DNA from: Pseudomonadota bacterium
GTDB lineage: Bacteria; Myxococcota_A; Polyangia; DRWM01
Reading direction: 5' to 3'
NCBI GenBank assembly: GCA_043813155.1
Contig: JBDRLK010000353.1
Location: forward strand, 1 to 33,377
Length of the DNA stretch: 33,377 bases
Shown: piece after piece, positions 5,469-18,572 of the stretch
How the letters are laid out: the number at the start of each line of letters is the position of its first letter
How positions within the stretch are numbered: position 1 is the first letter of the stretch
Program-made: the position numbers and the translations under genes
Notes under the pieces: model-generated
Database searches by the model: none
Seen by the model: only the letters and a program-made list of their open reading frames with translations
Told to the model about the DNA's origin: nothing

Positions 5469-6407
5469 ATGCAACCACAGGTACTAATCGTTGATGACCA
5501 GCTGTCAGTCGTCAAATCCTGGGAGGCCATCCTGTCGGAAACGGGCATTTCCGTCACCGGAACGCGGGATGGAAAGGAAGCCTGGCAGCAGTTCCAGAAA
5601 AAGAAGTTCGACGCGGTTATTACCGATATCAGGATGCCGGGCATGGACGGGATCGAGCTTTTGGAAAAGATCAAGAAAGCCGACAGGAAGGTCGAGGTCA
5701 TCGTGCTGACGGGCTACGGCTCAAAGGAGAATGTTACAAGGGCAACGGACCTTGGAGCCTACGATTTCATTTTAAAGCCTGTTTCACCGCGCGACATGGT
5801 CAACACGACCATCGGGGCGCTCGGCCGGAGGGGCTTTGAACGCAGCAGGTTCAAGCCCAGATGGCAGTGGCTCGTGCGGCCGGCCGACGTGGCCGCGAAA
5901 ATGAAGGCGGAGCTGGAGAAGGCCGAAAGCAGGCCCGCGCCTGAAATCCCGAAGGAGCACTTCGAGAAGCTCGATGAGATCATAGCAAAGTGGCGGGGCA
6001 AGCCTGGATGCCTGATCCCTGCGCTCCAGGAAGCCCAGGGCCTCATCGGGTATCTTCCGCCTGAAATCCAGAAGATCATCGCGGCGGGTCTCGATCTGCC
6101 GGCCAGCGAGGTGTTCAGCGTGGTGACCTTCTATGCCTTCTTCACCCTGAAGCCGCGAGGCAAGTTCAACATCAGGGTGTGTCTCGGCACGGCGTGCTAC
6201 GTGAAGGGAGGCAGAGATATCGTGGGCAAGATAAGAGAGGGCATGGGCATCGGCATCGGTGACATTACCGACGACATGAAATTCTCCCTCGAGGCCGTCC
6301 GGTGCCTCGGCGCCTGCGGCCTTGCGCCTACCCTGACCGTGGGCCAGGACGTTCACGGCAGGATCAACCCGGCCAAGACCATGGAGATATTCAAGCAGTA
6401 TGAGTAA
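5469..6407 (+). CDS. response-regulator receiver domain fused to NuoE/HydC-type thioredoxin-like [2Fe-2S] subunit
   Basis: REC: LIVDD(9,10), VITD(53)IRMPGMDG, VLTGYG, ILKP. C-terminal half: NuoE motifs IPALQEAQ, CLGTAC (Cx4C) and CLGACGLAP (Cx3C). SD AAGGAGG lies upstream. Confidence 0.9.
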   Translation: MQPQVLIVDDQLSVVKSWEAILSETGISVTGTRDGKEAWQQFQKKKFDAVITDIRMPGMDGIELLEKIKKADRKVEVIVLTGYGSKENVTRATDLGAYDFILKPVSPRDMVNTTIGALGRRGFERSRFKPRWQWLVRPADVAAKMKAELEKAESRPAPEIPKEHFEKLDEIIAKWRGKPGCLIPALQEAQGLIGYLPPEIQKIIAAGLDLPASEVFSVVTFYAFFTLKPRGKFNIRVCLGTACYVKGGRDIVGKIREGMGIGIGDITDDMKFSLEAVRCLGACGLAPTLTVGQDVHGRINPAKTMEIFKQYE

Positions 6408-6455: not shown

Positions 6456-6842
6456 ATGAAACTCAAAGACGTGATCGCGGAAATCGAGGGGAAAATGCTG
6501 TGCGGCGAGGAGCTGCTTTCTGCAGACATCGAGACGGTCATGGCATCGGACATGATGAGCGATGTCCTGAGGTACTCGAAACCGGGCTCCATTCTCGTCA
6601 CGGGCAACAAGAACGTCCAGGCCGTGCGAACCGTGCTCATCGCGGAGCTGCGCGGCGCGATCCTGATCAGGAACAAGGCCCCGGCAAGGGAAATCCTGGA
6701 GCTTGCGCAGGAGAACGGGATTTTCATCGCCCTGACCGGGCTGGACATGTTCGAGGTGTGCGGCAGGCTGTACGAGAGAATGAAAGCAGCGCCGCCGCAA
6801 ACAAAAAAGGAGGATCAATCCGGCAGCAGGGCGGAAGTGTAG
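6456..6842 (+). CDS. DRTGG domain protein (copy 1)
   Basis: 128 aa and a clear paralog of 8654..9004 (shared ASDMMSDV, GRLY). This is the architecture of small DRTGG proteins found next to hydrogenase-like sensor genes. SD AGGAGG. Confidence 0.75.
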   Translation: MKLKDVIAEIEGKMLCGEELLSADIETVMASDMMSDVLRYSKPGSILVTGNKNVQAVRTVLIAELRGAILIRNKAPAREILELAQENGIFIALTGLDMFEVCGRLYERMKAAPPQTKKEDQSGSRAEV

Positions 6843-6861
6843 AGGGGGGCCGGGCGCTGCG

Positions 6862-7398
6862 ATGAGGGATATTTACGTATTCGAACAGAAGTTTCCGATA
6901 ACGGGCGGAGATTTTACCAATGCGGGCATGGCGTCCGTGGAGGTGAAATCCATACTGAAAAAAACGGGAATCGATTCGAAGAATGTCAGGAGGATATCCA
7001 TCGCGGTCTATGAAGCGGAGATGAACGTCGTTCTGTACTCACGGCAAGGAGTGCTGACGCTGCTCGTGACGCCGGAGAGCGTTTTCATTGTTTTCCAGGA
7101 CGAGGGGGAGGGCATCGAGGATATCGCCATGGCCATGAGAGAGGGCTTTACCACGTCGGACGAGAAAATACGGGAGCTGGGCTTCGGAAGCGGCATGGGG
7201 CTTCCCAACATCAAGGGGAATGCCGACTACTTGAAAATCACCTCCACCATGAAGAAAGGAACGACGCTGGAGATGGGGTTCGACCTGACGGGGAGGATTT
7301 CGGAGTCCGATAAAGAGGAGACCAGGACGAGGTACGACATGGAAAACGATATCAACATGTATCTTTGGAAAAAGAAGGGGTACGTAGAGAAGACATGA
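6862..7398 (+). CDS. anti-sigma-factor-like Ser/Thr protein kinase (RsbW/SpoIIAB-type GHKL ATPase)
   Basis: 178 aa. Bergerat-fold boxes EAEMNVV (N), DEGEGI (G1) and GFGSGMGL (G2). No DHp/H-box. Confidence 0.75.
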   Translation: MRDIYVFEQKFPITGGDFTNAGMASVEVKSILKKTGIDSKNVRRISIAVYEAEMNVVLYSRQGVLTLLVTPESVFIVFQDEGEGIEDIAMAMREGFTTSDEKIRELGFGSGMGLPNIKGNADYLKITSTMKKGTTLEMGFDLTGRISESDKEETRTRYDMENDINMYLWKKKGYVEKT

Positions 7399-8657
7399 TC
7401 TCATTGCGAATAGACGCTGACAAGTGCAACGGGTGCGTGAAGTGCATGCACGCCTGCCCCACCAGGGCGTTGAGGGTGAGAGATGGAACAGCGGTTATTC
7501 TGGACGATTATTGCATCGACTGCGGCGAGTGCGTCACGGCGTGCGAGAAGAACGCGATCGTTCCCCTCATCGATACGTTCGAGGACTTTTTTCAGAAGTT
7601 CAAGTTCAAGATCGCGCTGCCGTCCCCCGTGCTGTATTCCCAGTTCGGCGGCACTGTTCAGCCCAACGACATTCTCGCGGCCATACGAAGCCTGGGTTTC
7701 GGCTGCGTCGTGGACGAGGCCTACATCTGCGAGATGGTCAGCTCCGTGATCAAGCACTACGCGGACAAGAACAAGTCCGGCTTCCCCTATATTTCGTCGA
7801 TGTGCCCCGTTGTCACGCGGCTGATCCAGATGAGATTTCACGACCTGATCCACGCCATCATCCCGCTCCAGTCCCCGAGGGAGATCACGGCCCAGGAGCT
7901 CAAGCGAAAGTACTCGAAAAAGCTGGGCCTTCCGGAAGAGGACATAGGCGTGCTCTACATAACGCCCTGCTCGGCGAAGATCAACGCGATCAAGGACCCG
8001 CCTGCGAGGAAGAAGTCCACCATCGACGCCGCCATGGCGATCAAGGACATGTACATGCGGATCGCCAACAAGCTGTTCACGATCAGGGACAGTATCACTG
8101 AAGATGACGAGATGTACATGAGGGCGAGCGGGCTCGGCATCAGCTGGGGCATGGTAGGAGGGGAGATAGCCAATTTCGACCACAGCGAGTGCATCGCGGT
8201 TTCCGGCATAAGGGACGTCATCAAGATCCTCGAGGACATAGACAGGGGAAGGTTTTCCAACCTGCGCTACCTGGAATTGAGGGCATGCAGGGAAGGGTGC
8301 CTGGGCGGCAACCTGAACGTGGAGGACCGCTACGTGGCGAGAATGAACCTGATACGGCTGGTGGACATGTTCGGCAGTACTCCCAAGTTCGACAGGGAAA
8401 AGCTGATGCGGACCCACCAGAGCTACTTCTCCTTTGAAAAAGAGCCTTCTCCCATCAGGGAGACCGAGGCTCCCCTCAACCGCAGGAGGGACACGGCCAT
8501 TGAAATGCTCAACAGGGTCATCGAGATCCACGGCAGCCTGAAACAGATCGACTGCGGGGCCTGCGGCTCGCCGGACTGCGCGACATTCGCGGAAGACGTT
8601 GTCCGGGAATACTCCACGCTGGACCAGTGTGTTTTCATCGGGAGGGACAAGAAATGA
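7395..8657 (+). CDS. [FeFe]-hydrogenase-like protein, sensory (HydS-like) type without PAS domain
   Basis: N-terminal 2x[4Fe-4S] ferredoxin motifs CNGCVKCMHACP and CIDCGECVTACE. H-domain motifs SSMCP (for TSCCP), TPCSAK (for MPCxxK) and ELRACREGCLGG (for ExMxCxxGCxxG). C-terminal CGACGSPDC-x16-C. The start was chosen at the ATGA overlap with the upstream stop. ATG 7365 is an alternative. Confidence 0.85.
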   Translation: MISLRIDADKCNGCVKCMHACPTRALRVRDGTAVILDDYCIDCGECVTACEKNAIVPLIDTFEDFFQKFKFKIALPSPVLYSQFGGTVQPNDILAAIRSLGFGCVVDEAYICEMVSSVIKHYADKNKSGFPYISSMCPVVTRLIQMRFHDLIHAIIPLQSPREITAQELKRKYSKKLGLPEEDIGVLYITPCSAKINAIKDPPARKKSTIDAAMAIKDMYMRIANKLFTIRDSITEDDEMYMRASGLGISWGMVGGEIANFDHSECIAVSGIRDVIKILEDIDRGRFSNLRYLELRACREGCLGGNLNVEDRYVARMNLIRLVDMFGSTPKFDREKLMRTHQSYFSFEKEPSPIRETEAPLNRRRDTAIEMLNRVIEIHGSLKQIDCGACGSPDCATFAEDVVREYSTLDQCVFIGRDKK

Positions 8658-9004
8658 AACTTCGTGAAATAATTGAAAAGCTTGATTTCAAGGTGGTCAA
8701 CGAATCCGACAACATGGACGTGAACATCAGGCGCGGGTATGCAAGCGACATGCTCAGCGATGTCATTGCCAACGTCGGGGCCGATGATGTCTGGATCACC
8801 ATCCAGGCCCACCAGAACATCGTGGCCGTGGCCGTGCTCAAGGGAGTCGCGGCGATCATCATAGCGAACAAGAGGAATATCAACCAGGAAACGATCGCAA
8901 AGGCTAAGAGTGAAAACGTGGCCCTCATGCTCAGCGAGTTGCCGGTTTTCGAGATCGCTGGAAGGCTGTACGACATGGGGATCAGGGGGATCACGGAGCA
9001 ATGA
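8654..9004 (+). CDS. DRTGG domain protein (copy 2)
   Basis: 116 aa from ATG 8654 (ATGA overlap with the upstream stop). Paralog of 6456..6842. Confidence 0.75.
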   Translation: MKLREIIEKLDFKVVNESDNMDVNIRRGYASDMLSDVIANVGADDVWITIQAHQNIVAVAVLKGVAAIIIANKRNINQETIAKAKSENVALMLSELPVFEIAGRLYDMGIRGITEQ

Positions 9005-9777
9005 GCGCATTGCGGGAGTTCAGGGCGGACCTGCACGTCCATTCCTGCCTCTCGCCCTGTGCGGACATATTCATGACGCCCGCGAGGATAGCGAAGCGCG
9101 CCCGGGAGGCCGGATTGGACATGGTCGCCATCTGCGACCACAATTCCGCGGAGAACGCTCCCTACGGCGTGAAGGCCTGCGAGAGGTTGGAAGGGCTGAG
9201 CTTCCTGCCCGGCCTGGAAATCACGTCGGTGGAGGAAGTTCACGTCGTGGCGCTTTTCGCAGGCATCGCTGGCGCGCTGAAAATGCAGCGGGTTGTTTAC
9301 GACAAGCTGACGAAGGCGCCCAACGACAGCGACATGTACGGCGACCAGATCATCGTAAACGAGGACGACGAGGTGGAGGGCTTCAACGGCAGGTTGCTGA
9401 TCGGCTCCGTGGACATTGATTTGAAATCCCTGGTGGATCAGATTCACCGGCTGGACGGCATCGCCATTGCCGCGCACATAGACAAGACGTCGTTCGGGGT
9501 CGTGGGCCAGCTCGGGTTTATCCCCGAGGACGTTGACTTCGACGCTGTCGAGCTGTCCAGGTACGTGACGGACCGCAGCGAGGACTGGGAGCGGGAGGCG
9601 CAGAACAATTATTTCATGGGCCGCAGGTTTCCGATCCTGTTTTCCTCGGACGCCCACAGGCTCGAGGAAGTGGGAAAGCGAAGAACGATGTTTTTACTGA
9701 AATCGCCCGGGTTCGAGGAAATCAGGATGGCGCTCAAGGAGGTCGGCGGAAGAAAAGTACAGGCCCGGGAGACCTGA
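9001..9777 (+). CDS. PHP-family phosphoesterase
   Basis: 258 aa. PHP metal-ligand motifs DLHVHS, CDHNS, GLEITS, AAHIDK and SSDAH. ATGA overlap with the upstream gene. Confidence 0.85.
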   Translation: MSALREFRADLHVHSCLSPCADIFMTPARIAKRAREAGLDMVAICDHNSAENAPYGVKACERLEGLSFLPGLEITSVEEVHVVALFAGIAGALKMQRVVYDKLTKAPNDSDMYGDQIIVNEDDEVEGFNGRLLIGSVDIDLKSLVDQIHRLDGIAIAAHIDKTSFGVVGQLGFIPEDVDFDAVELSRYVTDRSEDWEREAQNNYFMGRRFPILFSSDAHRLEEVGKRRTMFLLKSPGFEEIRMALKEVGGRKVQARET

Positions 9778-9791
9778 AGGCTTCCGGCTCA

Positions 9792-9847
9792 GGGGCAGGG
9801 GAGGCTTTAGCCTCCCGGTTCAAGGGTAGGGGAGGCTTTAGCCTCCC
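9792..9847. repeat. two tandem REP-like hairpins
   Basis: GGGGAGGC-TTTA-GCCTCCC at 9798..9816 and again at 9829..9847 (the second preceded by GGGTA). Confidence 0.75.
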
Positions 9848-9864
9848 GTAAACAAAAAAGTCAA

Positions 9865-10416
9865 ATGGAAGATCTGTCGCTGCACATACTCGATATCATG
9901 CAGAATTCCGCGGAGCATGGCGCGGACACAATCGTTCTGCGAATCGAGGAGAACGCGGGCGACGACTTGCTCACGATCTCGATCCTGGACAATGGATCGG
10001 GAATGGACGAGAGCGCGGCGGCCAGGGTGACCGACCCGTTCTACACGTCCAAGGACAAGAGGGTCGGGCTCGGCGTCCCCCTGTTCAAGCAGGCGGCGCT
10101 GGCCGCGGGAGGCAGCTTCTCGATCGACTCGCAGGCCGGGAAGGGAACCGTGATCGAGGCGAGCTTCGACTATTCGAACATAGACCGCCAGCCCCTGGGC
10201 AATGTGGTGGACACGGTGATTTCCATACTCATCGCCTATCCCCATCTGCGGATTGTCTATACCCATGTGAAGGACGGGCAGGAGGCGGCCTTTGATTCCG
10301 AAGATTTCATGGAGCGCGCGGCAACGGCCGAGGGCGGGACCGCGGAGTACGCCGTGCTCTCCCTGATGAAAGGGGAATGGGAAAGCAGGCTCGGCGAAAT
10401 AGGCGCCGGCGAATAA
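9865..10416 (+). CDS. stand-alone GHKL (histidine-kinase-like) ATPase domain protein
   Basis: 183 aa. ILDIMQNSAEHGA (N box), LDNGSGMDE (G1), RVGLGVPLF (G2). No DHp/H-box or sensor domain. This resembles the small ATPase found between nuoE- and nuoF-like genes of bifurcating hydrogenase operons. Confidence 0.75.
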   Translation: MEDLSLHILDIMQNSAEHGADTIVLRIEENAGDDLLTISILDNGSGMDESAAARVTDPFYTSKDKRVGLGVPLFKQAALAAGGSFSIDSQAGKGTVIEASFDYSNIDRQPLGNVVDTVISILIAYPHLRIVYTHVKDGQEAAFDSEDFMERAATAEGGTAEYAVLSLMKGEWESRLGEIGAGE

Positions 10417-10511: not shown

Positions 10512-10898
10512 ATGGCGAAATTGAAGATTGACGACCTCGACAGGATCAAGAAAAAAATGAAGGGTCAGATCCAGATCAGGGAGGGTGAGCACAGGGTGAA
10601 ATTGACCATCCACATGGGAACCTGCGGCATTGCCGCGGGCGCGCGCCCCCTCATGACGAGGATGCTCAAGGAGCTTTCAGACCGCAACATCACCGATGTT
10701 CGCCTCACGAGCTCGGGGTGCGCGGGGCTGTGCAGCCAGGAGCCCATGGCCACGGTCGAGATCAAGGGAGAGGCGCCGGTGAAGTACATCTCCCTCGACG
10801 AGGATAAAATGGTGGAAATCCTGGAGAAGCATGTTATCGGCGGCCGGATCGTGGAAAAGCACATGCTGGCCATGGGCAGCGAAAAAGTCCACGTGTAA
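10512..10898 (+). CDS. small thioredoxin-like [2Fe-2S] ferredoxin-domain protein
   Basis: 128 aa. HMGTCGIAAGA and SSGCAGLCSQEP motifs typical of the Trx-like ferredoxins encoded in HydABC-type operons. Only three Cys are present (C38, C70, C74). Confidence 0.8.
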   Translation: MAKLKIDDLDRIKKKMKGQIQIREGEHRVKLTIHMGTCGIAAGARPLMTRMLKELSDRNITDVRLTSSGCAGLCSQEPMATVEIKGEAPVKYISLDEDKMVEILEKHVIGGRIVEKHMLAMGSEKVHV

Positions 10899-10915
10899 CT
10901 TATATCTTGAATGGT

Positions 10916-11167
10916 GTGCGGGGCTTTAGCCCCGCCGAAGCGGCCCTGAAGGGCCGCACTGCGGAACGGAATGTTGGTGTGCGGGGCTTTAGCCCCGCCG
11001 AAGCGGCCCAGAAGGGCCGCACTGCGGAACGGAATGTTGTAGTGCGGGGCTTTAGCCCCGCCGAAGCGGCCCAGAAGGGCCGCACTACGGAACGGAATGG
11101 TGTAGTGCGGGGCTTTAGCCCCGCCGAAGCGGCCCTGAAGGGCCGCACTACGGCACCGAATTTAGTG
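10916..11167. repeat. 4 x 63-bp tandem repeat, each unit a double hairpin
   Basis: Units start at 10916, 10979, 11042 and 11105. Each carries GCGGGGC-TTTA-GCCCCGC and GCGGCCC-TGAA-GGGCCGC within GTGCGG...CCGCAC. A few substitutions separate the units. Confidence 0.9.
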
Positions 11168-11197: not shown

Positions 11198-14100
11198 ATG
11201 CCGGAAGCAAAGTACAGGATAGAATGTCTCGTATGCGCGGGAACCAGCTGCGTCGCCGGGGGCTCGTTCGAGCTGAAAGGGGTGCTCGAAGAGTCGATCA
11301 AAAAATTCGAGCTCCGGGACGAGGTGAGGGTCACCACGACGGGGTGCAACGGGTTCTGCGCCGCGGGCCCGATCATCAGGGTCATGCCCGACGACGTGTT
11401 TTACCAGTTCGTCACCCCCGGGGACGTGGACAAGTTCGTGGAGGAGCATTTCATCAAGGGCAGGGTTTACAAGCCGCTGCTCTACGAGGAGGACGAGACC
11501 AGGCAGAAAGTCCCGATCATGAGCGACATCGGGTTCTTCAAGCACCAGACGCTGATCGTTCTTCGCAACAGGGGGCTGATCGATCCGGAGGTCATCGACG
11601 AATATATCGGCAGGGACGGGTACAGGGCCGTGGCCAAGGCGCTCACGCAGATGACGCCCGAGGACATCAGGGCGGAGATGAAGAAATCCGGCCTCAGGGG
11701 AAGGGGAGGAGCCGGCTTCCCCACGGCGCTGAAGTGGGAGTTCTGCGCCAAGGCGCAGGGCGATATCAAGTACATGCTCTGCAACGCGGACGAGGGAGAC
11801 CCCGGCGCGTTCATGGACCGCAGCGTGCTGGAAAGCGACCCCCACGCCGTTCTCGAGGGAATGACCATCGGCGCAAAGGCCATCGGCTCTTCGGAGGGCT
11901 ACATCTACGTGAGGGCGGAGTACCCGCTCGCGATCAAGAGGCTGCAGATCGCCATCAGGCAGGCGCTGGATTACGGCCTGCTCGGCGACAACATCCTGGA
12001 CACGGGCTTCAACTTCCACCTCGACCTGTACTTCGGCGCCGGCGCTTTTGTCTGCGGCGAGGAGACGGCCCTCATGCGCTCCATCGAGGGCAAGCGGGGA
12101 ACGCCGCGGCCCAGGCCGCCCTTCCCGGCGCACAAGGGGTTGTGGGACAGGCCGTCCGTCCTCAACAACGTGGAAACGCTGGCCAACGTCCCGCAGATCA
12201 TTCAGAACGGCGGTGACTGGTACGCGAGCCTTGGGACCGAGCGAAGCAAGGGCACCAAGGTCTTCGCCCTGTCGGGCGCGGTCCAGAACATCGGCCTGGT
12301 GGAAATCCCCATGGGCGCGTCCATACGCACGCTGGTCTATGACATCGGCGGCGGCGCCAAGGCGGGCAAGCAGGTCAAGGCCATCCAGATGGGCGGGCCG
12401 TCGGGCGGGTGCATTCCCGAGAAAATATTCGACACGCAGATCGACTACGAGGAGATACAGAAGACCGGAGCCATCATGGGCTCGGGCGGCGTGGTGGTCA
12501 TGGACGACACCACCTGCATGGTCGACCTGGCCAGGTTTTTCCTTGACTTCACTTCCGAGGAGTCCTGCGGCAAGTGCGTGCCCTGCAGGATCGGGACCAA
12601 GGTCATGCTCGATGTGCTGGACAAGATCATCGCGGGCAACGGCGAGATGGAAGACCTCGACAAGCTGGAAGACCTTGGCAGGGACATTGCCGCGGCAAGC
12701 CTTTGCGGCCTTGGCCAGACGGCGCCCAATCCCGTCCTTTCCACGCTCAGGTACTACAGGCACGAATACGAGGCCCACGTCAAGGAGCAGTACTGCCCGG
12801 CGGGCAAGTGCAAGCGCCTGTCGCCCACGCCTTGCCAGGCCGCCTGCCCCATCGGGTCGGACATCTCGAGCTACGTGTCGCTCATCGGGCACGGGCGGTA
12901 CAATGACGCGCTGCAGGTCATTCTCGAGGATAACCCGCTGCCCGCGTCCCTGGGCAGGATCTGCGTTCACAAGTGCGAGGAAGGCTGCAGGCGGGCGGAG
13001 GTCGACACGCCCGTCTCCATCTGCGCCCTGAAGAGGGTCGCGGTGGACAAGGTTCCCGGCTACGTGGACGACGTCGAGCCCTGCGCCATAAGGTTCGACG
13101 AGAAAGTCGCCATCGTGGGCGCGGGCCCGGCGGGCGTCGCGGCGGCCTACGACCTGGTCCGCTACGGGTACGGCGTGACGATTTTCGACATGCTGAAGAA
13201 GGGCGGGGGCATGCTCAGGGCCGGGATTCCAGAATACAGGCTTCCGAGAAAGACCCTCGATGCCGAGCTGGGGAGGCTCGTGAAGATGGGCGTAAAATTC
13301 GAGTTCGGTAAAAAACTGGGCAAGGATTTTTCGCTGGGCAGCCTGCGCAAGCAGGGGTTCAAGGCGATCTTCATGGGCATCGGCGCCTACAAGGGAATGA
13401 AACTGCGGCTGGAGGGAGAGGACGAGGCCGGGGGGATTACGGACTGCATCGAGTTTCTCATGGAAAACAATCTCAAGGGCCACAAGAAGGCGGGCGACAA
13501 GGTGCTCGTCATCGGGGGCGGCAACGCGGCCATGGATGCCGCCCGCGTCTCCATACGCGTGGGCAGCGACGTGCGCCTGCTGTACCGCAGGACGCGCAAG
13601 GAGATGCCGGCGAACCCGGCCGAGATCGAGGCCGCCATCGAGGAAGGCGTGAACATGGAGCTGCTGGTGCAGCCCGTGGCGCTGCTCACGTCGAGCGGCA
13701 GGGTAAAGGGCCTCAAGTGCATCCGCAACGAGCTGGGCGAGCCGGACAAGAGCGGCAGGCGCAGGCCCGTGGCCATCGAGGGCAGCGAGTTCGACGTGGA
13801 GGCGGACGCCATCATCACGGCCATCGGGCAGTCTCCCGACCTGAGCTTCATCGGCAGCGGCTCGGGAGAGTTCGAGCTCAGCAGGTGGGGCACGATCAAG
13901 GTCGACCCCGATACCATGCAGACGAGCCAGAAGGACGTGTTCGCGGCCGGTGACGCGGTGACGGGCCCGGCCAGCGCCGTCGAAGCCATGGGAGGGGGAA
14001 GGCAGGCGGCTCACTCCATCCACTGCTTCCTGAGGGGCTTGCCCTTTGGCGTGTACAAGCATGCCAAGCCCATGAAGTTCCCGGAGCGTGTTCCGGTCAG

Positions 14101-14260
14101 GGAGGGAGAGCTCGACGGTCTCGAGAAGCCGAAGATGCCCCACATGTCCGTCGGGAAGAGGTGCAAGTGCTTCGACGAAGTGGAGCTCGGCCTGGATGAG
14201 AAAACCGCGATCATGGAAGCGAAACGGTGTCTTCGGTGCGATCTCCAGGCGGAGGAATAG
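11198..14260 (+). CDS. NuoF/HydB-type flavoprotein (N-terminal Trx-like 2Fe-2S, FMN/NADH site, 4Fe-4S) fused to a GltD-like NAD(P)H-dependent FAD oxidoreductase
   Basis: The start was chosen at an ATG 7 nt after AGGAGGA. Motifs: CLVCAGTSC...GCNGFCAAGP; GRGGAGFPT; CNADEGDPGAFMDR; ESCGKCVPCRIG...SLCGLGQ. Then the GltD part: CPAGKC...CQAACP...ICVHKCEEGC, VAIVGAGPAGVAAAYDL, VLVIGGGNAAMDAAR, LLYRRTRKEMPA. 1020 aa. Confidence 0.9.
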   Translation: MPEAKYRIECLVCAGTSCVAGGSFELKGVLEESIKKFELRDEVRVTTTGCNGFCAAGPIIRVMPDDVFYQFVTPGDVDKFVEEHFIKGRVYKPLLYEEDETRQKVPIMSDIGFFKHQTLIVLRNRGLIDPEVIDEYIGRDGYRAVAKALTQMTPEDIRAEMKKSGLRGRGGAGFPTALKWEFCAKAQGDIKYMLCNADEGDPGAFMDRSVLESDPHAVLEGMTIGAKAIGSSEGYIYVRAEYPLAIKRLQIAIRQALDYGLLGDNILDTGFNFHLDLYFGAGAFVCGEETALMRSIEGKRGTPRPRPPFPAHKGLWDRPSVLNNVETLANVPQIIQNGGDWYASLGTERSKGTKVFALSGAVQNIGLVEIPMGASIRTLVYDIGGGAKAGKQVKAIQMGGPSGGCIPEKIFDTQIDYEEIQKTGAIMGSGGVVVMDDTTCMVDLARFFLDFTSEESCGKCVPCRIGTKVMLDVLDKIIAGNGEMEDLDKLEDLGRDIAAASLCGLGQTAPNPVLSTLRYYRHEYEAHVKEQYCPAGKCKRLSPTPCQAACPIGSDISSYVSLIGHGRYNDALQVILEDNPLPASLGRICVHKCEEGCRRAEVDTPVSICALKRVAVDKVPGYVDDVEPCAIRFDEKVAIVGAGPAGVAAAYDLVRYGYGVTIFDMLKKGGGMLRAGIPEYRLPRKTLDAELGRLVKMGVKFEFGKKLGKDFSLGSLRKQGFKAIFMGIGAYKGMKLRLEGEDEAGGITDCIEFLMENNLKGHKKAGDKVLVIGGGNAAMDAARVSIRVGSDVRLLYRRTRKEMPANPAEIEAAIEEGVNMELLVQPVALLTSSGRVKGLKCIRNELGEPDKSGRRRPVAIEGSEFDVEADAIITAIGQSPDLSFIGSGSGEFELSRWGTIKVDPDTMQTSQKDVFAAGDAVTGPASAVEAMGGGRQAAHSIHCFLRGLPFGVYKHAKPMKFPERVPVREGELDGLEKPKMPHMSVGKRCKCFDEVELGLDEKTAIMEAKRCLRCDLQAEE

Positions 14261-14276
14261 AGGAAGCGTGCGCCTG

Positions 14277-14350
14277 AAAATCGCATGGTGCTGCGGGCCT
14301 TCGGCCCGCCCGACAATCGCATGGTGCTGCGGGCCCTCGGCCCGCCCGAA
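14277..14350. repeat. 2 x 36-bp tandem hairpin repeat
   Basis: AATCGCATGGTGCTGCGGGCC(T/C)TCGGCCCGCCCGA occurs twice (TCGCATGG at 14281 and 14317). Each copy has the hairpin GCGGGCC-(T/C)TC-GGCCCGC. Confidence 0.85.
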
Positions 14351-14364
14351 ACACGAGGTGAGTA

Positions 14365-16959
14365 ATGCAAGACAAGAATGAAAACATGATGACGCTGAAA
14401 ATCGACGGCAAGGAAGTTTCGGTCCCCAGGGGCTCGACCATTCTCGACGCGGCGATCAAGGCGGGCGTCTTTATCCCCACGCTATGTCATGACCCGAGGC
14501 TCAAGCCGTTCGGCGCGTGCAGGATGTGCGTGGTGCAGGTCGAGGGGCGGGGGCCCAGGTTCGTCACGGCCTGCAGCACGCCGGCCGATCCCGACACCAA
14601 CGTGATCACGACGAACGAAAGGATAGACAAGGCGCGAAGGACCGTCCTCGAGCTCCTGGCCGTGCACCACCCCGTTGACTGCCCTGTCTGCGACGCGGCC
14701 GGGGAATGCGAGTTCCAGAACCTCACGGCCTCCCTGAGGGGCACGGACCGCAGGAGGTTTGGCGGCGAGGAAAAGAGGTACGTGATCGACCGGCGCAATC
14801 CTCTCGTGGAAAGAAACCTCGCGCGCTGCATTGGATGCGGAAAATGCGTAAGGGTCTGCACGGAAGTGCAGGGAACGGCGGCCATCGATTTTCAGCACCG
14901 CGGTTTCGAGACGGGCATCGGCCCGGCCTTCCAGGAGCCGCTGGACTGCGATTTCTGCGGCCAGTGCGTGGACATCTGTCCCGTGGGCGCGCTCCAGAAC
15001 AGGCAGTACAAGTACACCACGCGCTCGTGGCTGCTCAACAAGGTGCCCGCGGTCTGCTGCTTCTGCGGCGACGGGTGCTCCCTCGAGGTCGGCGTGGGGC
15101 AGAGAGGCGAGATCGTGCGCGCAAAGAGCCGCGCCGCCCTGGGGTTCAACGAGGGGAACCTGTGCCAGCGGGGCAGGTTCGGGCACGATGTCCTGACCAG
15201 CCCGGCCAGGATAAACGAGCCCATGATCAGGAAGGACGGCAGCCTCATGGCCGTGGGGTGGAAGGATGCGCAGGCCAAAGCGGCCTCGGAGCTGGACAGG
15301 ATAAAGTCGAAGCACGGCGAGGGGTCCGTCGGTTTCATGGTGGGCGGACGGGTGGACAACGAGTCGCTGCTGGTGCTTTCGCGGTTTGCGGGCGAGGTCA
15401 TGAAGTCCGGAAACATCGCGAGCACGACGATGCGCCGCTACCGGGACTGGATCGACACGGCCCGCGAGGTCTGGGGCGTCGCGCCGCCCGCCATGGCCCC
15501 GGCCCGGGCCCTCGAGTCCGACCTGATCCTGGTCCTGGAATCGGAGATCAACGCCACGAACCCGCTCACGTGGATCAATATCCGCAAGGCGCAGATGCAG
15601 AGGGAGGCGGCGCTGGTCGTGGCGGACAGCAGGCGGACCAAGACGGGCTGGCGCGCGGGGAAATTTTTCGCCGTCGCGCCGGGAGGCTCGACCGAGCTTC
15701 TGCTGCGGGTTGTCGCGTCCATGGTGATCAAGGGTCTCGTGGACAGGGGCAAGCTGGGAGCCGTCGAGGGGTTTGACAAGTTCACGCGCGAGGCATCGGC
15801 GGCAAAGTCGGCATTGACCGAGGGCATCGAGCACACCGACGTCGGCTGGCTCGCCAACGCGCTGGCCGGGGCCGAGAACCCGCTCATCGTCCTCACGCTC
15901 GACTCGATGGAGAACATGAAGTCGAAGCCTCTCGTCAGGGCGGCGGCCGACCTCATGGTGCTCCTGGGCAAGGGCCCGGAGAACATCATGGTGCCCATGC
16001 CCGAGGCGAACATGCGGGGGCTCGTGGACAGCGGCCTTGCGGCCGGCGAGGGCGCCCGGGACGCGGCGCTTTTCATGAAGGATATTTCGGACGGAAAAAT
16101 CAAGGCGCTTTACGTGATCGGCGACGATCCGCTCTCGCGGCTGCCGGACCCGGCGGCCGTGGAAAAGGCTTTGGCGAGCCTCGAGCTCCTCGTGGTCCAG
16201 GACATCGTGCTGGGCCCCACGGCCAACATGGCCGACATTATCCTTCCGTCGGCGGGCTGGAGCGAGCACGAGGGGAGCTTCACCTGCTCGAGCGGCGTGA
16301 TCCAGGCTTTTGACAGGGCCGTCAATCCCGTGGGCGAGGCTGAAGCGGACTGGAAGATAATCAGCGGGATCAGCGCCAGGATGGGCTTTGATTTCGGTTA
16401 TAAAACAGTTGAGTCGATACGCAAGGATTACCTGGAGAAGTGGTACCCGGGTAAAAAGATCCTCAAGCCCGGCCTCTTCTCGTACGCGGAGCCGGGGCCT
16501 GCCGGGGAAGCCAAAGAGCCGGCAACGGGCAAGTTCATCGAGACGGGGTTCAAGGCAGCGCAGGCCACGCTCATCGCAAAGGAGCTGCAGCTCCAGACCG
16601 GGCCCATGCGCGGCCACAGCGGCGTCCTGTCCACCTACTCCGCGGCCATCACCTCGGTGTTCGGGGAGCCGAGGGCGCTCATCAACCCCGCCGACGCAAA
16701 AGCCCTTGGCGTGGAGGACGGCGGCAGCGTCAACGTCAAGTCCACGGCCGGCGACATCAGCGTGCGCGTGAAGGTGGACCACGAGATCCGCAAGGGCGTT
16801 ATTTTCATCCCCGCGCATTTCAGCGAGCCGCCCGTTCTGAGCCTGGTTCCGCCCGACGCCTACGCCGGCGGCGCGCCGGTCAAGGTCACGGTCACGCCCT
16901 TCAAGCTGCCGGCCAGGGCCTGCGAGGCCGCCGCCGCGTCCGCCGTATCCTCGAGCTGA
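14365..16959 (+). CDS. NuoG/formate-dehydrogenase-alpha-like Fe-S/molybdopterin-fold subunit lacking the Cys/Sec-His catalytic motif (SfrA-like)
   Basis: 864 aa. N-terminal 2Fe-2S (CHDPRLKPFGACRMC...C), His-ligated cluster HHPVDCPVCDAAGEC, 2x4Fe-4S (CIGCGKCVRVC, CDFCGQCVDICP) and a Mo-domain 4Fe-4S (CCFCGDGCS...C). Where Fdh has ...CCARV(U/C)HGPS..., this protein reads NIASTTMRRYRDW. There is no in-frame TGA. Confidence 0.85.
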   Translation: MQDKNENMMTLKIDGKEVSVPRGSTILDAAIKAGVFIPTLCHDPRLKPFGACRMCVVQVEGRGPRFVTACSTPADPDTNVITTNERIDKARRTVLELLAVHHPVDCPVCDAAGECEFQNLTASLRGTDRRRFGGEEKRYVIDRRNPLVERNLARCIGCGKCVRVCTEVQGTAAIDFQHRGFETGIGPAFQEPLDCDFCGQCVDICPVGALQNRQYKYTTRSWLLNKVPAVCCFCGDGCSLEVGVGQRGEIVRAKSRAALGFNEGNLCQRGRFGHDVLTSPARINEPMIRKDGSLMAVGWKDAQAKAASELDRIKSKHGEGSVGFMVGGRVDNESLLVLSRFAGEVMKSGNIASTTMRRYRDWIDTAREVWGVAPPAMAPARALESDLILVLESEINATNPLTWINIRKAQMQREAALVVADSRRTKTGWRAGKFFAVAPGGSTELLLRVVASMVIKGLVDRGKLGAVEGFDKFTREASAAKSALTEGIEHTDVGWLANALAGAENPLIVLTLDSMENMKSKPLVRAAADLMVLLGKGPENIMVPMPEANMRGLVDSGLAAGEGARDAALFMKDISDGKIKALYVIGDDPLSRLPDPAAVEKALASLELLVVQDIVLGPTANMADIILPSAGWSEHEGSFTCSSGVIQAFDRAVNPVGEAEADWKIISGISARMGFDFGYKTVESIRKDYLEKWYPGKKILKPGLFSYAEPGPAGEAKEPATGKFIETGFKAAQATLIAKELQLQTGPMRGHSGVLSTYSAAITSVFGEPRALINPADAKALGVEDGGSVNVKSTAGDISVRVKVDHEIRKGVIFIPAHFSEPPVLSLVPPDAYAGGAPVKVTVTPFKLPARACEAAAASAVSSS

Positions 16960-17153: not shown

Positions 17154-17182
17154 TTGATTAAATTCCTTTTCGACTTCATAAT
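17154..17182 (+). promoter_or_regulatory. candidate sigma70 promoter
   Basis: TTGATT (17154..17159), a 17-nt spacer, then CATAAT (17177..17182). The -10 ends 8 nt before the ATG at 17191 and there is no SD. Confidence 0.35.
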
Positions 17183-17190
17183 CATTGTTG

Positions 17191-18426
17191 ATGAATAGGT
17201 ACACCGCTGTCTGCCTGATTGCTCTGTTTTTTCCGGCCGTCTCGTCCTGCGCCTTGGGCTGGGAGGAGGGAGGAGACGCCCAGGACGCCCCGGTCGAGCC
17301 AGGCGACCCCGATTCGCTGGATTTCACCTACGACTGGCTGCCGGACGCGCCGGCCGATATGCCGGCGGACGCGCCTTTCGACATGCCGGCGGACGCGCCG
17401 GTCGACACTCCCGCCTCCGACTGCCCGGCGGGGCAGACCTGGTGCGCCGGCGCGTGCGTGAGCACGGCGTCGGACAGGAACAACTGCGGGACCTGCGGGA
17501 ACGTGTGCCTCGGGGCGCTGCACGCCGACCCGGTTTGCGAGGACGGGGAATGCGGCACCACGTGCCAGGCGGGGTGGGCGGACCTTGACGGCGACGGCGC
17601 GTGCGAGTCGGACTGCGTTCCGGCCGACGAGATATGCAACGGGATCGATGACGACTGCGACACCCTGTGCGACGACGGTTTTGAATGCTGCCTGGGCGAC
17701 GGGCGCGGCTGCACCACGTCCTGCAGCACGGCGGGCACGCAGTCCTGCCTGGCGGGCTGCGCCTGGACCGCCTGCGAGCCGCCGGACGAGACGTGCAACG
17801 GCATGGACGATGACTGCGACACGCTCTGCGACGAAGGGTCCGACTGCTGCCAGGGCCTGGTGGGCGCATCGTGCACGAACCCCGCGGGCGTGTCCGGCAC
17901 GCGAAACTGCGGAGCAGGCTGCGCGTGGTCGGCATGCTGCGCGGCCGCCGAGACCTGCGGGAACAGCTACGATGACGACTGCGACACTGTTGCCGACGAC
18001 GGCTGCTCCACGGGAGGCGACTGCGAGGAAGTGGTCGACTCCGACTGGGGCGCGGGGCCGTCGGGGTGCTCCGCAGGGAACCAGAGGTGCTCGGGCGGGA
18101 GCTGCATTACCTGCGAGTCGGCGGGCGGCTACTTCAGCACGTACTGCTGGTTCGAGGGCGGCTGGGGAGAGACGTGCACGCAGGTGTGCTCCGCAAAGAG
18201 CGGGGTCGTCCACCCCCAGTGCACATGGGGCGCGGACTATGACTTCTGCGACGTGTGCCAGCATTTCACGGGCACATCCGAATCCTGCACGGCGGCCGAC
18301 CCCTCGGGACCGGTCTACGCGGCCTATCTGTGGAACGAGTGCTGGGCCTTTTTCCGCGTTGACGGCACGGGCGACTGCAACAAGATATTCGACTGGATGA
18401 AGCGTTACTGCGCCTGCAGGCGCTGA
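17191..18426 (+). CDS. Cys-rich secreted lipoprotein with MopE-like CNGxDDDCD repeats
   Basis: Signal peptide plus lipobox MNRYTAVCLIALFFPAVSSC. Acidic PADAP tandem linker. Three CNG(I/M)DDDCDTLCD / CGNSYDDDCDTVAD motifs. Cys-rich C-terminal domain of about 120 aa with no recognisable family. TTG 17185 is an alternative start. Confidence 0.7.
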   Translation: MNRYTAVCLIALFFPAVSSCALGWEEGGDAQDAPVEPGDPDSLDFTYDWLPDAPADMPADAPFDMPADAPVDTPASDCPAGQTWCAGACVSTASDRNNCGTCGNVCLGALHADPVCEDGECGTTCQAGWADLDGDGACESDCVPADEICNGIDDDCDTLCDDGFECCLGDGRGCTTSCSTAGTQSCLAGCAWTACEPPDETCNGMDDDCDTLCDEGSDCCQGLVGASCTNPAGVSGTRNCGAGCAWSACCAAAETCGNSYDDDCDTVADDGCSTGGDCEEVVDSDWGAGPSGCSAGNQRCSGGSCITCESAGGYFSTYCWFEGGWGETCTQVCSAKSGVVHPQCTWGADYDFCDVCQHFTGTSESCTAADPSGPVYAAYLWNECWAFFRVDGTGDCNKIFDWMKRYCACRR

Positions 18427-18572
18427 CAATTTCAATGACAAGCACACCTGTCCCGGGTCCGGGGGACACGCTTTCTGCAGGAACCCCATTAAAGAGCCGA
18501 ACCTTTTTCCTGTTGTCAGCGATAGGCTTGATGCTGTATGGTATTAGAAGGCAATGTAAAAGGGGAGAGCCC

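What the first reader, a model, noticed from the sequence alone, without database searches (positions are those of the whole stretch)
11198..14260. NuoF/HydB-type subunit fused to a complete GltD-like NAD(P)H:FAD module
One 1020-aa polypeptide combines several modules. It has an N-terminal Trx-like 2Fe-2S domain, the FMN/NADH-binding 51-kDa core with its CxxCxxC...C cluster, and the two-cluster Cys-rich adaptor typical of glutamate synthase small subunits. It also has FAD and NAD(P)H Rossmann motifs, with YRRTRK after the second GxGxxA suggesting NADPH. Two nucleotide sites and two flavins in one chain are the layout of the StnB subunit of the Sporomusa-type Nfn transhydrogenase. Here it is combined with different partner subunits.
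Basis: partly seen in the sequence, partly recalled or inferred. Interest (0 to 1): 0.6.

Follow-up and report, generated by a model that had tools for sequence, protein, structure and literature searches.

The report
NuoF subunit carrying an NADPH module
A real 1020-residue protein joins the NADH/FMN core of an electron-bifurcating HydB/NfnB-type enzyme to an NADPH/FAD module that sits exactly where such enzymes normally carry their ferredoxin-type domain, a widespread but biochemically untested layout that probably links the NADH, NADPH and ferredoxin pools.

Summary
ORF 11198-14260 (+) encodes one 1020-aa chain. It has a Trx-like [2Fe-2S] domain, a NuoF FMN/NADH core with its [4Fe-4S] cluster, a GltD-type dicluster domain, and FAD and NADPH Rossmann folds.

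The module set matches the Stn/NfnABC transhydrogenase. But StnB is a plain NuoF, and in Stn the GltD module sits in StnC. Here the GltD cassette follows the Zn hinge of the B subunit and replaces the two-cluster ferredoxin-like (B3/B4) domain.

Partners in the operon are a receiver-fused NuoE, an HndB-like protein, and a NuoG/Fdh-like subunit that lacks the catalytic Cys/Sec-His and Arg. So this locus encodes neither a formate dehydrogenase nor a hydrogenase.

The fusion is common:
- at least 117 clusters (90% identity) share it at full length;
- it occurs in many phyla, including an Asgard archaeon;
- it is usually annotated only as "NuoF".

Elsewhere it pairs with [FeFe] or [NiFe] hydrogenases, Sec/Cys formate dehydrogenases, or glutamate-synthase-domain proteins. 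The NuoF halves are not one clade. The window's nearest relatives include unfused genes in the same operon type.

Most likely function: an NADH/NADPH oxidoreductase, probably ferredoxin-coupled (Nfn-type). The wiring is inferred, not shown. I class it as a new variant of a known kind, of moderate interest.

The parts
11198..14260 (+). NuoF-GltD fusion protein (P0001, 1020 aa), the B subunit of a Bfu-like complex
   Evidence: Open frame. Pfam and NCBIfam domains. AF2 model with pLDDT 89.1 and pTM 0.78. Foldseek matches the N half to BfuB chains and the C half to the GltD module of NfnA/StnC.
11216..11446 (+). N-terminal thioredoxin-like [2Fe-2S] domain (B5 site): C13, C18, C50, C54
   Evidence: PF01257, residues 7-83. 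The Cys are invariant or nearly invariant in 73 homologues.
11678..12193 (+). FMN/NADH-binding 51-kDa core with the Bfu hallmark residues (NADEGD, AFM 204-206, F284, E288/E289)
   Evidence: PF01512. Alignment to Tsi NfnB, A. woodii HydB and A. mobile HydB. Residue roles come from PMC12018979. Invariance.
12524..12778 (+). Four-helix-bundle domain with the [4Fe-4S] cluster B1 (C457, C460, C463, C503). GGPSG lies just upstream, at residues 399-403.
   Evidence: PF10589, residues 443-527. Invariant Cys.
12776..12811 (+). Zn/B2 hinge ligands H527, C533 and C538 (with C440). This is the junction to the GltD cassette. The last hinge Cys and the first GltD Cys are always 7 residues apart.
   Evidence: Aligns to H524/C529/C534 of Tsi NfnB. 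Spacing is 7 in all 117 full-length homologues.
12791..13051 (+). GltD/DPD-type dicluster domain (C546, C550, C589, C593, C597). It replaces the ferredoxin-like B3/B4 domain.
   Evidence: PF14691, residues 532-618. No CxxCxxCxxxC motif after residue 480 in any of 117 homologues. Unfused relatives carry two such motifs at this place.
13103..13999 (+). FAD (GxGxxG, 641-646) and NADPH (GxGxxA, 773-778; R797, R798, R800) Rossmann folds
   Evidence: PF07992, residues 636-934. Best PDB sequence matches are 9bov_A, 9n5u_A and 8oh5_C, then NfnL 4ylf_B and 5jca_L.
14216..14239 (+). C-terminal tail EAKRCLRC, which supplies the first two Cys of the distal [4Fe-4S] cluster (permuted GltD motif)
   Evidence: R1010, C1011, R1013 and C1014 are invariant. 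The tail aligns to the end of the GltD insert of Csac NfnA, residues about 560-567.
5469..6407 (+). Receiver domain fused to NuoE/HydC-type [2Fe-2S] subunit (C subunit)
   Evidence: PF00072 at residues 5-112 plus PF01257 at 169-311. NCBIfam HoxE/NuoE. The full-length fusion is conserved in L032 and L033.
6456..10416 (+). Sensor/signalling cassette: DRTGG, GHKL ATPase, HydS-like [FeFe]-hydrogenase homologue, DRTGG, PHP, GHKL ATPase
   Evidence: Pfam. The same cassette lies next to relatives L017, L018, L024, L032, L033, L040 and L079.
10512..10898 (+). HndB-like small thioredoxin-fold protein (128 aa, only three Cys)
   Evidence: NCBIfam 2Fe-2S ferredoxin, E 3e-8. Sequence read. Conserved next to many relatives.
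14365..16959 (+). NuoG/Fdh-like A subunit (P0121, 864 aa). It has a [2Fe-2S] cluster, four [4Fe-4S] motifs, and a molybdopterin fold without the catalytic residues.
   Evidence: Pfam. NuoG is the best NCBIfam hit, at 395 bits, against 267 bits for Fdh-alpha. Cys386-His387 of R. capsulatus FdsA aligns to Arg-Tyr here, and the RGQNNVQG Arg is absent. The same holds in the close family P0122-P0128.

Best explanation
P0001 is the B (NuoF/HydB-type) subunit of a soluble Bfu-like iron-sulfur flavoprotein complex. The complex is built from receiver-NuoE (C), an HndB-like protein, P0001 (B), and a catalytically dead NuoG/Fdh-like subunit (A).

The N-terminal 540 residues keep everything that defines the bifurcating BfuB core: the FMN/NADH pocket, cluster B1, the Zn hinge and the N-terminal 2Fe-2S site. 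Straight after the hinge, the usual ferredoxin-like domain (clusters B3 and B4) is replaced by the same GltD/NfnL-type cassette that Stn/NfnABC carries in its A subunit. That cassette holds two [4Fe-4S] clusters, FAD and an NADPH site.

The complex therefore has an NADH site and an NADPH site joined by Fe-S clusters, and no third catalytic centre. It most likely moves electrons between the NADH and NADPH pools. This is probably coupled to ferredoxin, as in the Nfn/Stn reaction (NADH + reduced ferredoxin + 2 NADP+ giving 2 NADPH).

What is shown: domain composition, conserved ligands, operon partners, and absence of a formate dehydrogenase or hydrogenase site.

What is inferred: NADPH specificity; the route FAD, proximal cluster, distal cluster, then B1 or C1, then FMN; the involvement of ferredoxin and where it docks; and control by the neighbouring sensor cassette through the receiver domain on NuoE.
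For: 1. Domains and motifs are present.

2. The NuoF half scores 620-770 bits against solved bifurcating B subunits (7t2r_B, 7q4v_B, 9bov_B, 9n5u_B, 8oh5_B). The match runs up to the hinge and stops there.

3. The residues that PMC12018979 names as Bfu hallmarks are all present and invariant in 73 homologues. They are D195, AFM, F281, E286, GGPSG and H524/C529/C534.

4. The GltD half is closest to the GltD insert of NfnA/StnC: 391, 347 and 344 bits, against about 292 for NfnL. The match includes the permuted RCLxC tail.

5. The fold search agrees for both halves.

6. The A subunit lacks the Cys/Sec-His and the Arg, as in StnC and NfnA.

7. NuoE lies directly upstream of the fused gene in nearly all relatives.

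8. Shorter proteins of about 650 aa hold only the NuoF cluster domain plus GltD, next to HydA or a NuoG-like gene. They suggest that the cassette can pass electrons to the A subunit by way of the B1 domain.
Against: - There are no biochemical data for any member of this architecture.
- The ferredoxin-like B3/B4 domain is missing. In NfnABC that domain forms part of the ferredoxin site and of the low-potential path. A Stn-like three-substrate reaction therefore needs another ferredoxin site.
- I could not measure cluster-to-cluster distances, because model coordinates are not returned. Wiring to B1 versus C1 is open.
- The closest unfused relatives (L032, L033) have the same dead A subunit and no GltD. 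The A subunit may therefore serve an unknown third partner.
- No ortholog of P0121 was found in the 30 nearest genomes, so physiology cannot be read from relatives.
Confidence: 0.5

Rival explanations
1. NADP(H) takes the place of ferredoxin. The GltD cassette is wired to NuoE's C1 cluster as the low-potential arm of the Bfu flavobicluster. The enzyme then splits or merges electrons between NAD(H) (about -280 mV in vivo) and NADP(H) (about -380 mV). The mid-potential partner enters through the A subunit. That partner would be H2 or formate in relatives, and an unknown protein carrier in this window.
For: - The cassette sits exactly where B3/B4 sit, behind an invariant hinge.
- In NfnABC the path C1-B3-B4 is the low-potential branch.
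- The swap recurs with every kind of A partner: [FeFe], [NiFe], Sec/Cys FdhA and dead NuoG-like.
- The Bfu hallmark residues stay invariant.
- The potentials listed in PMC9304861, Table 1, place H2 and formate near or below NADPH.
Against: - There are no distances and no assays.
- At standard potentials, H2 and formate are lower than both nicotinamides, so no coupling would be needed.
- The SfrB-like short forms suggest wiring to B1 rather than C1.
- This window has no mid-potential catalytic site.
Confidence: 0.2
2. A plain, non-bifurcating dual-input NAD(P)H dehydrogenase module. NADH (through FMN) and NADPH (through FAD) both feed cluster B1 and the A-subunit wire. The wire hands electrons to an external acceptor. 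That acceptor could be ferredoxin or another protein, as proposed for SfrAB-type NADPH oxidoreductases. It could also be the membrane arm of the genome's complex I, which lacks nuoE and nuoF.
For: - Short forms of about 650 aa (NADH_4Fe-4S + Fer4_20 + Pyr_redox_2) sit next to HydA or NuoG-like genes.
- A Pelobacter SfrB-like protein next to a hydrogenase is read as an NADPH-oxidising partner in PMC3543383.
- The Stn authors relate StnC to SfrB plus SfrA.
- The genome's only nuoH lies in a cluster ordered nuoB-C-D-(short NuoG-like)-H-I, with no nuoE or nuoF in it.
Against: - The bifurcation-type residues and NuoE are strictly kept.
- The nuo cluster has its own NuoG-like gene, so P0121 is not needed there.
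- No membrane-subunit genes lie in the window.
Confidence: 0.2
3. The GltD half works as a true glutamate-synthase small subunit. It would feed a Glu_synthase-domain protein encoded elsewhere in the genome.
For: In L010, L012, L022 (an Asgard archaeon) and L026, the fused gene is followed by a HoxU-like gene and a PF01645 Glu_synthase-domain gene of about 525 aa. In L022 two glutamate dehydrogenase genes come next.
Against: - No such gene lies in this window.
- The window's NuoF and GltD halves group with L009 and not with that clade.
- The operon has its own full-length A subunit.
Confidence: 0.05
4. Diaphorase subunit of a formate dehydrogenase or a hydrogenase at this locus.
For: The fused subunit has exactly this context in other lineages. 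It sits with FdhA carrying CARL(U/C)H and RGQNNVQG in L017, L018, L027, L060 and L104. It sits with HydA carrying H-cluster motifs in L011, L015, L016, L020, L021, L025, L101 and L131.
Against: - P0121 has Arg-Tyr in place of Cys/Sec-His, and no catalytic Arg.
- The only hydrogenase-like gene nearby is a HydS-like sensory type inside a signalling cassette.
Confidence: 0.03

Closest known systems
StnABC / NfnABC (Nfn-Bfu) electron-bifurcating transhydrogenase (Sporomusa ovata 8oh5, Caldicellulosiruptor saccharolyticus 9bov, Thermococcus sibiricus 9n5u)
   Same: - Same set of modules: NuoE-type C subunit, BfuB-type NuoF core, GltD/NfnL cassette with the permuted RCLxC tail, and an Fdh/NuoG-like domain without an active site.
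- The NuoF half scores 655-673 bits against these B chains.
- The GltD half has its best matches here.
   Different: - The GltD cassette is fused behind the Zn hinge of the B subunit. In Stn/NfnABC it is inserted after the N-terminal 2Fe-2S domain of the A subunit.
- The B3/B4 ferredoxin-like domain is absent.
- NuoE carries a receiver domain.
- There is an extra HndB-like protein.
- There are no activity data.
HydABC / NiFe-HydABCSL bifurcating hydrogenases (BfuB subunits 7q4v_B, 7t2r_B, 7p5h_B)
   Same: - Highest sequence similarity for residues 4-541 (up to 772 bits).
- All cofactor ligands and hallmark motifs of the B core are shared.
- The operon style matches: NuoE, GHKL ATPase, HndB-like, NuoF, then the A subunit.
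   Different: - No hydrogenase subunit is present.
- The C-terminal two-cluster domain is replaced by the NADPH/FAD cassette.
SfrAB-type NADPH oxidoreductase of Geobacteraceae and SfrB-like partners of [FeFe] hydrogenases
   Same: - A GltD-type NADPH subunit is paired with a NuoG/Fdh-like subunit.
- The Stn paper gives 39.9% identity between StnC and SfrB.
- Proteins of about 650 aa with the NuoF cluster domain plus GltD share the same junction region.
   Different: - Those proteins lack the FMN/NADH domain, the N-terminal 2Fe-2S domain and NuoE.
- I could not fetch the Geobacter SfrB sequence itself. Its domain make-up is inferred from a Pelobacter relative (L102) and from PMC3543383.
NfnSL (NfnAB) and the NADPH-glutamate synthase small subunit GltD
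   Same: The dicluster domain plus FAD and NADPH folds are shared (4ylf_B and 5jca_L at about 292 bits, 2vdc_G at 218 bits).
   Different: - There is no NfnS/PyrK-type partner.
- The first two cluster Cys come from the C-terminal tail.
- Whether the FAD bifurcates cannot be told from sequence.
HydB with a glutamate-synthase domain in archaeal group F hybrid hydrogenases (Cell 2024, PMC11216029)
   Same: This is the only mention I found of a NuoF-like diaphorase with a fused glutamate-synthase small-subunit-like domain. That paper modelled it on 7E5Z_B plus 7MFM_I, and guessed that ferredoxin acts at that domain.
   Different: - It is a different complex, with [FeFe] and [NiFe] subunits.
- It was not characterised at the level of this domain.
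- I did not compare the sequences.

Membership tests
Bfu family, B subunit (BfuB/HydB/NfnB) | NuoF core with FMN/NADH pocket and [4Fe-4S] cluster B1 | tested here: met
   PF01512 and PF10589. C457, C460, C463 and C503 are invariant. 620-770 bits to solved BfuB chains.
Bfu family, B subunit (BfuB/HydB/NfnB) | Residues reported as specific to bifurcating members: AFM motif, Phe in GAGAFVCGEE, GGPSG loop, and hinge His with three Cys (PMC12018979) | tested here: met
   A204-F205-M206, F284, G399-G403, and C440/H527/C533/C538 are all invariant, or at least 90% conserved, in 73 fused homologues.
Bfu family, B subunit (BfuB/HydB/NfnB) | C-terminal ferredoxin-like domain with clusters B3 and B4 (two CX2CX2CX3CP motifs; IPR017896 in the definition of PMC9304861) | tested here: not met
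   Pfam finds no Fer4-type domain, only Fer4_20. None of 117 homologues has a CxxCxxCxxxC motif after residue 480. Unfused relatives have two. InterPro itself was not run.
Bfu family, B subunit (BfuB/HydB/NfnB) | Encoded with a NuoE-type C subunit and a BfuA-type subunit (2Fe-2S plus 4Fe-4S domains) | tested here: met
   REC-NuoE at 5469-6407 and P0121 at 14365-16959. NuoE is adjacent in nearly all relatives.
Stn / Nfn-Bfu transhydrogenase | GltD/NfnL-like NADPH-FAD module present, with a GxGxxA NADPH motif | tested here: met
   PF14691 and PF07992. Best PDB matches are 9bov_A, 9n5u_A and 8oh5_C. GGGNAA plus YRRTRK read directly.
Stn / Nfn-Bfu transhydrogenase | The GltD module is part of the A subunit (StnC/NfnA), inserted after its N-terminal 2Fe-2S domain | tested here: not met
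   Here it is the C-terminal half of the B subunit. P0121 has no GltD part.
Stn / Nfn-Bfu transhydrogenase | Fdh/NuoG-like domain without a functional pterin site | tested here: met
   Arg-Tyr replaces Cys/Sec-His, and the Arg motif is absent. Pterin binding itself was not tested.
Stn / Nfn-Bfu transhydrogenase | NADPH-dependent, NAD+-requiring ferredoxin reduction | not testable with these tools
   This needs an enzyme assay.
GltD / NfnL (glutamate synthase small-subunit-like) family | Two [4Fe-4S] clusters in a DPD-type domain, plus an FAD GxGxxG fold and an NAD(P)H fold | tested here: met
   C546, C550, C589, C593, C597, C1011 and C1014 are invariant. So are G641/G643/G646 and G773/A778 (G775 is at least 90% conserved), and R797. 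The eighth ligand was not identified.
Metal-dependent formate dehydrogenase (for the partner P0121) | Catalytic Sec/Cys-His pair and the Arg of RGQNNVQG | tested here: not met
   Alignment to 6tg9_A. Family alignment. True FdhA partners of other fused genes show both motifs.

The most novel reading that the evidence does not exclude
The NuoF-GltD subunit may define a ferredoxin-independent branch of the Bfu enzymes. In this branch NADP(H), bound at the grafted FAD module, replaces ferredoxin as the low-potential leg of the FMN/B1/C1 bifurcation site. The resulting hydrogenases, formate dehydrogenases, Hox-type [NiFe] enzymes, glutamate-synthase-like enzymes and this 'orphan' complex would then split or merge electrons between NAD(H) and NADP(H).
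Probability: 0.2. Interest if true: 0.8.

Novelty: new variant of a known kind. Interest (0 to 1): 0.55.

Why it matters
Bfu-type enzymes (HydABC, NfnABC and relatives) are central to anaerobic energy metabolism. How their low-potential branch works is still debated.

This architecture is a natural experiment. It keeps the whole bifurcating core, but exchanges the ferredoxin-type exit domain for an NADPH/FAD module, at an invariant junction. It does this with many different catalytic partners and in many phyla.

If the module is wired to the low-potential arm, these enzymes would couple NADH and NADPH directly to H2, formate or other couples, without ferredoxin. That would change how redox balancing is modelled in syntrophs, sulfate reducers and Asgard archaea.

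If it is wired to cluster B1, the architecture is a compact form of the Stn/Nfn transhydrogenase.

Either way, thousands of genes now labelled 'NADH-quinone oxidoreductase subunit NuoF' are mis-described. The specific locus here adds a receiver domain on NuoE and an H2-sensor-like cassette. Together these hint at post-translational control of such an enzyme.

Tried and rejected
The contexts of the closest metagenomic homologues (P0002-P0004, 65-75% identity) therefore could not be read. I used the search for related loci and the genome search instead.
- **Formate dehydrogenase reading of the operon:** rejected, because the catalytic residues are absent.
- **Hydrogenase reading:** rejected. The only hydrogenase-like gene, at 7365-8657, shows no proton-relay Cys in my reading of its sequence. 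It also lies inside a signalling cassette.
- **Single origin of the fused NuoF cores:** rejected by an AU test (delta lnL 460, p 5e-81). The group was defined by architecture, and I had already seen a first tree. The invariant 7-residue junction argues that the junction itself arose once. Recombination or repeated reversion is needed to reconcile the two results, and I could not resolve this.
- **Expression:** no RNA holder was listed, and no reads were laid.
- **Cluster-to-cluster distances from the AF2 model:** coordinates are not returned, so B1 versus C1 wiring could not be measured.
- **Literature**: I found no paper that characterises a NuoF-GltD fusion. There is only the passing mention in PMC11216029. 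The library does not hold most subscription journals, so this is not proof of absence.
- **Identity of Geobacter SfrB** with the 650-aa short form: not verified, because no Geobacter record was among the 80 loci returned.
- **Complex I N-module idea:** kept only as part of a rival, because the nuo cluster has its own NuoG-like gene.

Full report
**Observation.** The frame 11198-14260 (+) is open and gives 1020 residues. It begins at an ATG 8 nt behind AAGGAGG. A longer TTG-started frame from 10907 runs through four 63-bp repeats. Homologues start at the ATG position.

Pfam finds these domains:
- thioredoxin-like 2Fe-2S, residues 7-83
- Complex1_51K, 161-332
- a weak SLBB match, 355-404
- NADH_4Fe-4S, 443-527
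- Fer4_20, 532-618
- Pyr_redox_2, 636-934

NCBIfam gives NuoF at 497 bits for residues 131-528, and GltD-type families at about 460 bits for 502-1018.

**Anatomy of the N-terminal half.** Residues 4-541 align without large gaps to the B subunits of solved electron-bifurcating enzymes:
- A. mobile NiFe-HydB, 772 bits
- HydB 7q4v_B, 746 bits
- Csac NfnB, 673 bits
- Tsi NfnB, 672 bits
- Sov StnB, 657 bits

The residues that PMC12018979 singles out for the bifurcating flavobicluster site are all present: Asp195, Ala-Phe-Met, Phe281, Glu286, GGPSG, and the hinge ligands C437/H524/C529/C534. They are invariant or nearly so in 73 fused homologues.

The similarity ends at the hinge, at CPAGKCKRL. In ordinary B subunits the ferredoxin-like domain with clusters B3 and B4 follows at that point. 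The nearest unfused relatives show it as two CxxCxxCxxxC motifs.

**Anatomy of the C-terminal half.** Seven residues after the last hinge Cys, the GltD-type dicluster domain starts (PCQAACP). This spacing is 7 in all 117 full-length homologues examined, and none of them has a ferredoxin-type motif after residue 480.

Residues 544-1015 match best the GltD/NfnL-like insert of the A subunits of Csac NfnA (9bov_A, residues 102-567), Tsi NfnA and Sov StnC. They match NfnL and GltD proper less well. The cassette boundaries are the same as in those inserts. It begins with PC-x3-CP and ends with the RCLxC tail, which supplies the first two Cys of the canonical GltD motif.

An AF2 model built on 73 sequences is confident (pLDDT 89.1, pTM 0.78), and the junction is well ordered. 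Foldseek matches the two halves to BfuB chains and to the NfnA/StnC GltD module respectively. No solved chain covers both halves; the best TM-score normalised to the query is 0.52.

**Operon.** On the + strand lie, in order:
- receiver+GcvH-like gene, 4572-5342
- receiver-NuoE, 5469-6407
- DRTGG, GHKL ATPase, HydS-like [FeFe]-hydrogenase homologue, DRTGG, PHP, GHKL ATPase, together 6456-10416
- an HndB-like protein, 10512-10898
- four 63-bp repeats
- P0001
- P0121, a NuoG/Fdh-like protein of 864 aa

P0121 keeps the N-terminal 2Fe-2S motif, the His-ligated cluster motif, two ferredoxin-type cluster motifs and the molybdopterin-domain 4Fe-4S motif. At the position of Cys386-His387 of R. capsulatus FdsA it reads Arg-Tyr, and the RGQNNVQG arginine is missing.

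Its close family (P0122-P0128, 52-89% identity) shares this state. So do the more distant NuoG-like proteins retrieved. NuoG is its best NCBIfam hit. The locus therefore encodes no formate dehydrogenase and no hydrogenase. In this it resembles StnC and NfnA, whose Fdh-like domains are inactive.

**Distribution and partners.** The fusion is common.
- The best 120 clusters at 90% identity are all of roughly 920-1250 residues and cover 90-100% of the query.
- About two dozen representatives at 50% identity span the junction.
- Species-representative genomes with it come from Thermodesulfobacteriota, Bacillota, Chloroflexota, Acidobacteriota, Planctomycetota, Bacteroidota, Verrucomicrobiota, Omnitrophota, Armatimonadota, Actinomycetota and a Promethearchaeota MAG.
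- Where named, it is called only 'NuoF'.

A NuoE gene lies directly upstream almost everywhere. The A-side partner differs:
- [FeFe] HydA with H-cluster motifs: L011, L015, L016, L020, L021, L025, L101, L131
- FdhA with Sec (L017, L018, L104) or Cys (L027, L060)
- HoxU-like plus a [NiFe] large subunit: L023, L030, L054
- HoxU-like plus a Glu_synthase-domain protein: L010, L012, L022, L026
- dead NuoG-like subunits: the window, L009, L014, L028, L031

The window's own genome has two further fused paralogues and about eight plain HydB-like genes. 12 of 30 related genomes have a fused gene at 47-58% identity. None has an ortholog of P0121.

**Phylogeny.** On a tree of the NuoF cores (92 rows), fused and unfused genes are intermixed, with at least 10 changes of state. 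A single clade of the 30 fused rows is rejected (p-AU 5e-81).

The window groups, at 97-98% support, with L009 and with L032 and L033. L009 is fused and has a dead NuoG-like partner. L032 (Thermodesulfovibrionales) and L033 (Deferribacteres) are unfused, yet carry the same operon. That operon holds receiver-GcvH, full-length receiver-NuoE, HndB-like, NuoF with B3/B4, a dead NuoG-like gene, and parts of the same DRTGG/ATPase/PHP signalling cassette.

The GltD halves recover several of the same clades, including window plus L009 at 99%. They also show exchanges. An A-fused cassette (L079) and a separately encoded one (L034) nest among the B-fused ones. So the cassette moves between attachment points. 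In the window's lineage, a B3/B4 domain and a GltD cassette are alternatives on an otherwise equal complex.

A third attachment form exists. Proteins of about 650 aa hold only the NuoF cluster domain plus the cassette, next to HydA or NuoG-like genes. They are like the 'SfrB-like' NADPH partner described for Pelobacter.

**Comparison with what is known.** In Stn/NfnABC the order of electron carriers is NADPH, FAD, the A-subunit clusters, B1, FMN. NAD+ is reduced at FMN, and ferredoxin is reduced through C1, B3 and B4.

By the published InterPro definition, BfuB needs a 4Fe-4S ferredoxin-type domain. This protein lacks it, and was probably outside that survey.

The only mention of such a fusion that I found is the 'glutamate synthase domain of HydB' in archaeal hybrid hydrogenases, where ferredoxin was guessed as its partner. 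I found no biochemical study.

**Mechanism.**
- Shown: one chain with ligands for FMN/NADH, B1, the Zn hinge, B5, two GltD clusters, FAD and an NADPH-type fold. Its partners are NuoE, an HndB-like protein and a wire-only A subunit.
- Inferred, most likely (0.5): electrons pass between NADPH/FAD and NADH/FMN through the two GltD clusters and the core. The passage is coupled to ferredoxin, as in the Nfn reaction, with ferredoxin docking at NuoE's C-terminal domain, the distal GltD cluster or the A subunit.
- Open: whether the distal GltD cluster talks to B1 or to C1. The short SfrB-like forms favour B1. The topological replacement of B3/B4 favours C1. The second case gives the most novel reading, a ferredoxin-independent NAD(H)/NADP(H) bifurcation (0.2). 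A plain dual-input dehydrogenase for an external acceptor, or for the complex I membrane arm that lacks nuoEF, is also possible (0.2).

**Verdict.**
- The architecture is widespread but uncharacterised.
- It is a new variant of the Bfu/Nfn kind rather than a new kind of system.
- The earlier notes of this scan on the receiver-NuoE, the HydS-like gene, the repeats and the dead A subunit agree with what I found independently.

Noticed in passing
window 10912-11161, 14271-14351, 9784-9848, 25094-25169: GC-rich hairpin-forming tandem repeats lie in the intergenic spacers of the operon and elsewhere. They are 63 bp x4, 36 bp x2.2, 31 bp x2.1 and 36 bp x2.1. Three of the four share a 'GGCTTTAGCC'-type core. 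The 63-bp array is in frame with P0001 from a TTG at 10907.
   Followed up: partly
window 5469-6407; L032 6375-7229; L033 2505-3353: A receiver domain is fused to the NuoE-type subunit. The fusion is conserved at full length in the two unfused relatives from Thermodesulfovibrionales and Deferribacteres. Each of these also has a receiver-GcvH-like gene upstream.
   Followed up: partly
window 7365-8657: A HydS-like [FeFe]-hydrogenase homologue. It reads SSMCP where catalytic enzymes have TSCCP, keeps TPCSAK and ACREGC, and ends with an extra C-terminal Fe-S motif. It is flanked by DRTGG, GHKL ATPase and PHP genes. L079 and L052 carry a homologue next to Bfu genes.
   Followed up: partly
L010 4050-6424; L012 11060-13398; L022 11036-16091; L026 11018-13381: In four phyla, including an Asgard archaeon, NuoE and NuoF-GltD are followed by a HoxU-like gene and a Glu_synthase-domain (PF01645) gene of about 525 aa. 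In L022 two glutamate dehydrogenase genes come next. This may be an NuoEF-linked glutamate synthase.
   Followed up: partly
L023, L030, L054: NuoF-GltD is followed by a HoxU-like gene and a [NiFe]-hydrogenase large subunit (PF00374). This looks like a Hox-type hydrogenase whose diaphorase carries the NADPH module.
   Followed up: partly
P0301, P0308, P0345; L102 4959-6836; L118 3500-5422; L126; L132: Proteins of about 650 aa hold only the NuoF [4Fe-4S] four-helix domain plus the GltD cassette, with no FMN domain. They lie next to HydA (Pelobacter sp., Acutalibacteraceae) or NuoG-like genes (Campylobacterota). They are probably the SfrB-like type.
   Followed up: partly
L024 8553-14586: One operon holds a fused NuoF-GltD, directly followed by a second NuoE, an unfused NuoF and a HydA-like gene. 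That makes two B-type subunits for one hydrogenase cluster.
   Followed up: no
G000 contig C460 (L090) 929-6520: The genome's only nuoH lies in a cluster ordered nuoB-C-D-(short NuoG-like, 517 aa)-H-I, with no nuoE or nuoF in it. The contig is only 7 kb long.
   Followed up: partly
G000, whole genome: The genome has about eleven NuoF-type paralogues, three of them fused to GltD. It also has many separate GltD-like genes. This is an unusually rich set of Bfu-type modules.
   Followed up: no
window 17182-18489 and 20228-21229: Long ORFs without any Pfam match lie downstream of the operon. A triple-PAS GGDEF diguanylate cyclase lies at 18435-20153. The 20228-21229 ORF contains 12- to 48-bp tandem repeats.
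   Followed up: no
G001:C462:646-3306: A fused homologue in a same-family genome has one in-frame TGA. I did not examine whether this is selenocysteine, a sequencing error or a broken gene.
   Followed up: no
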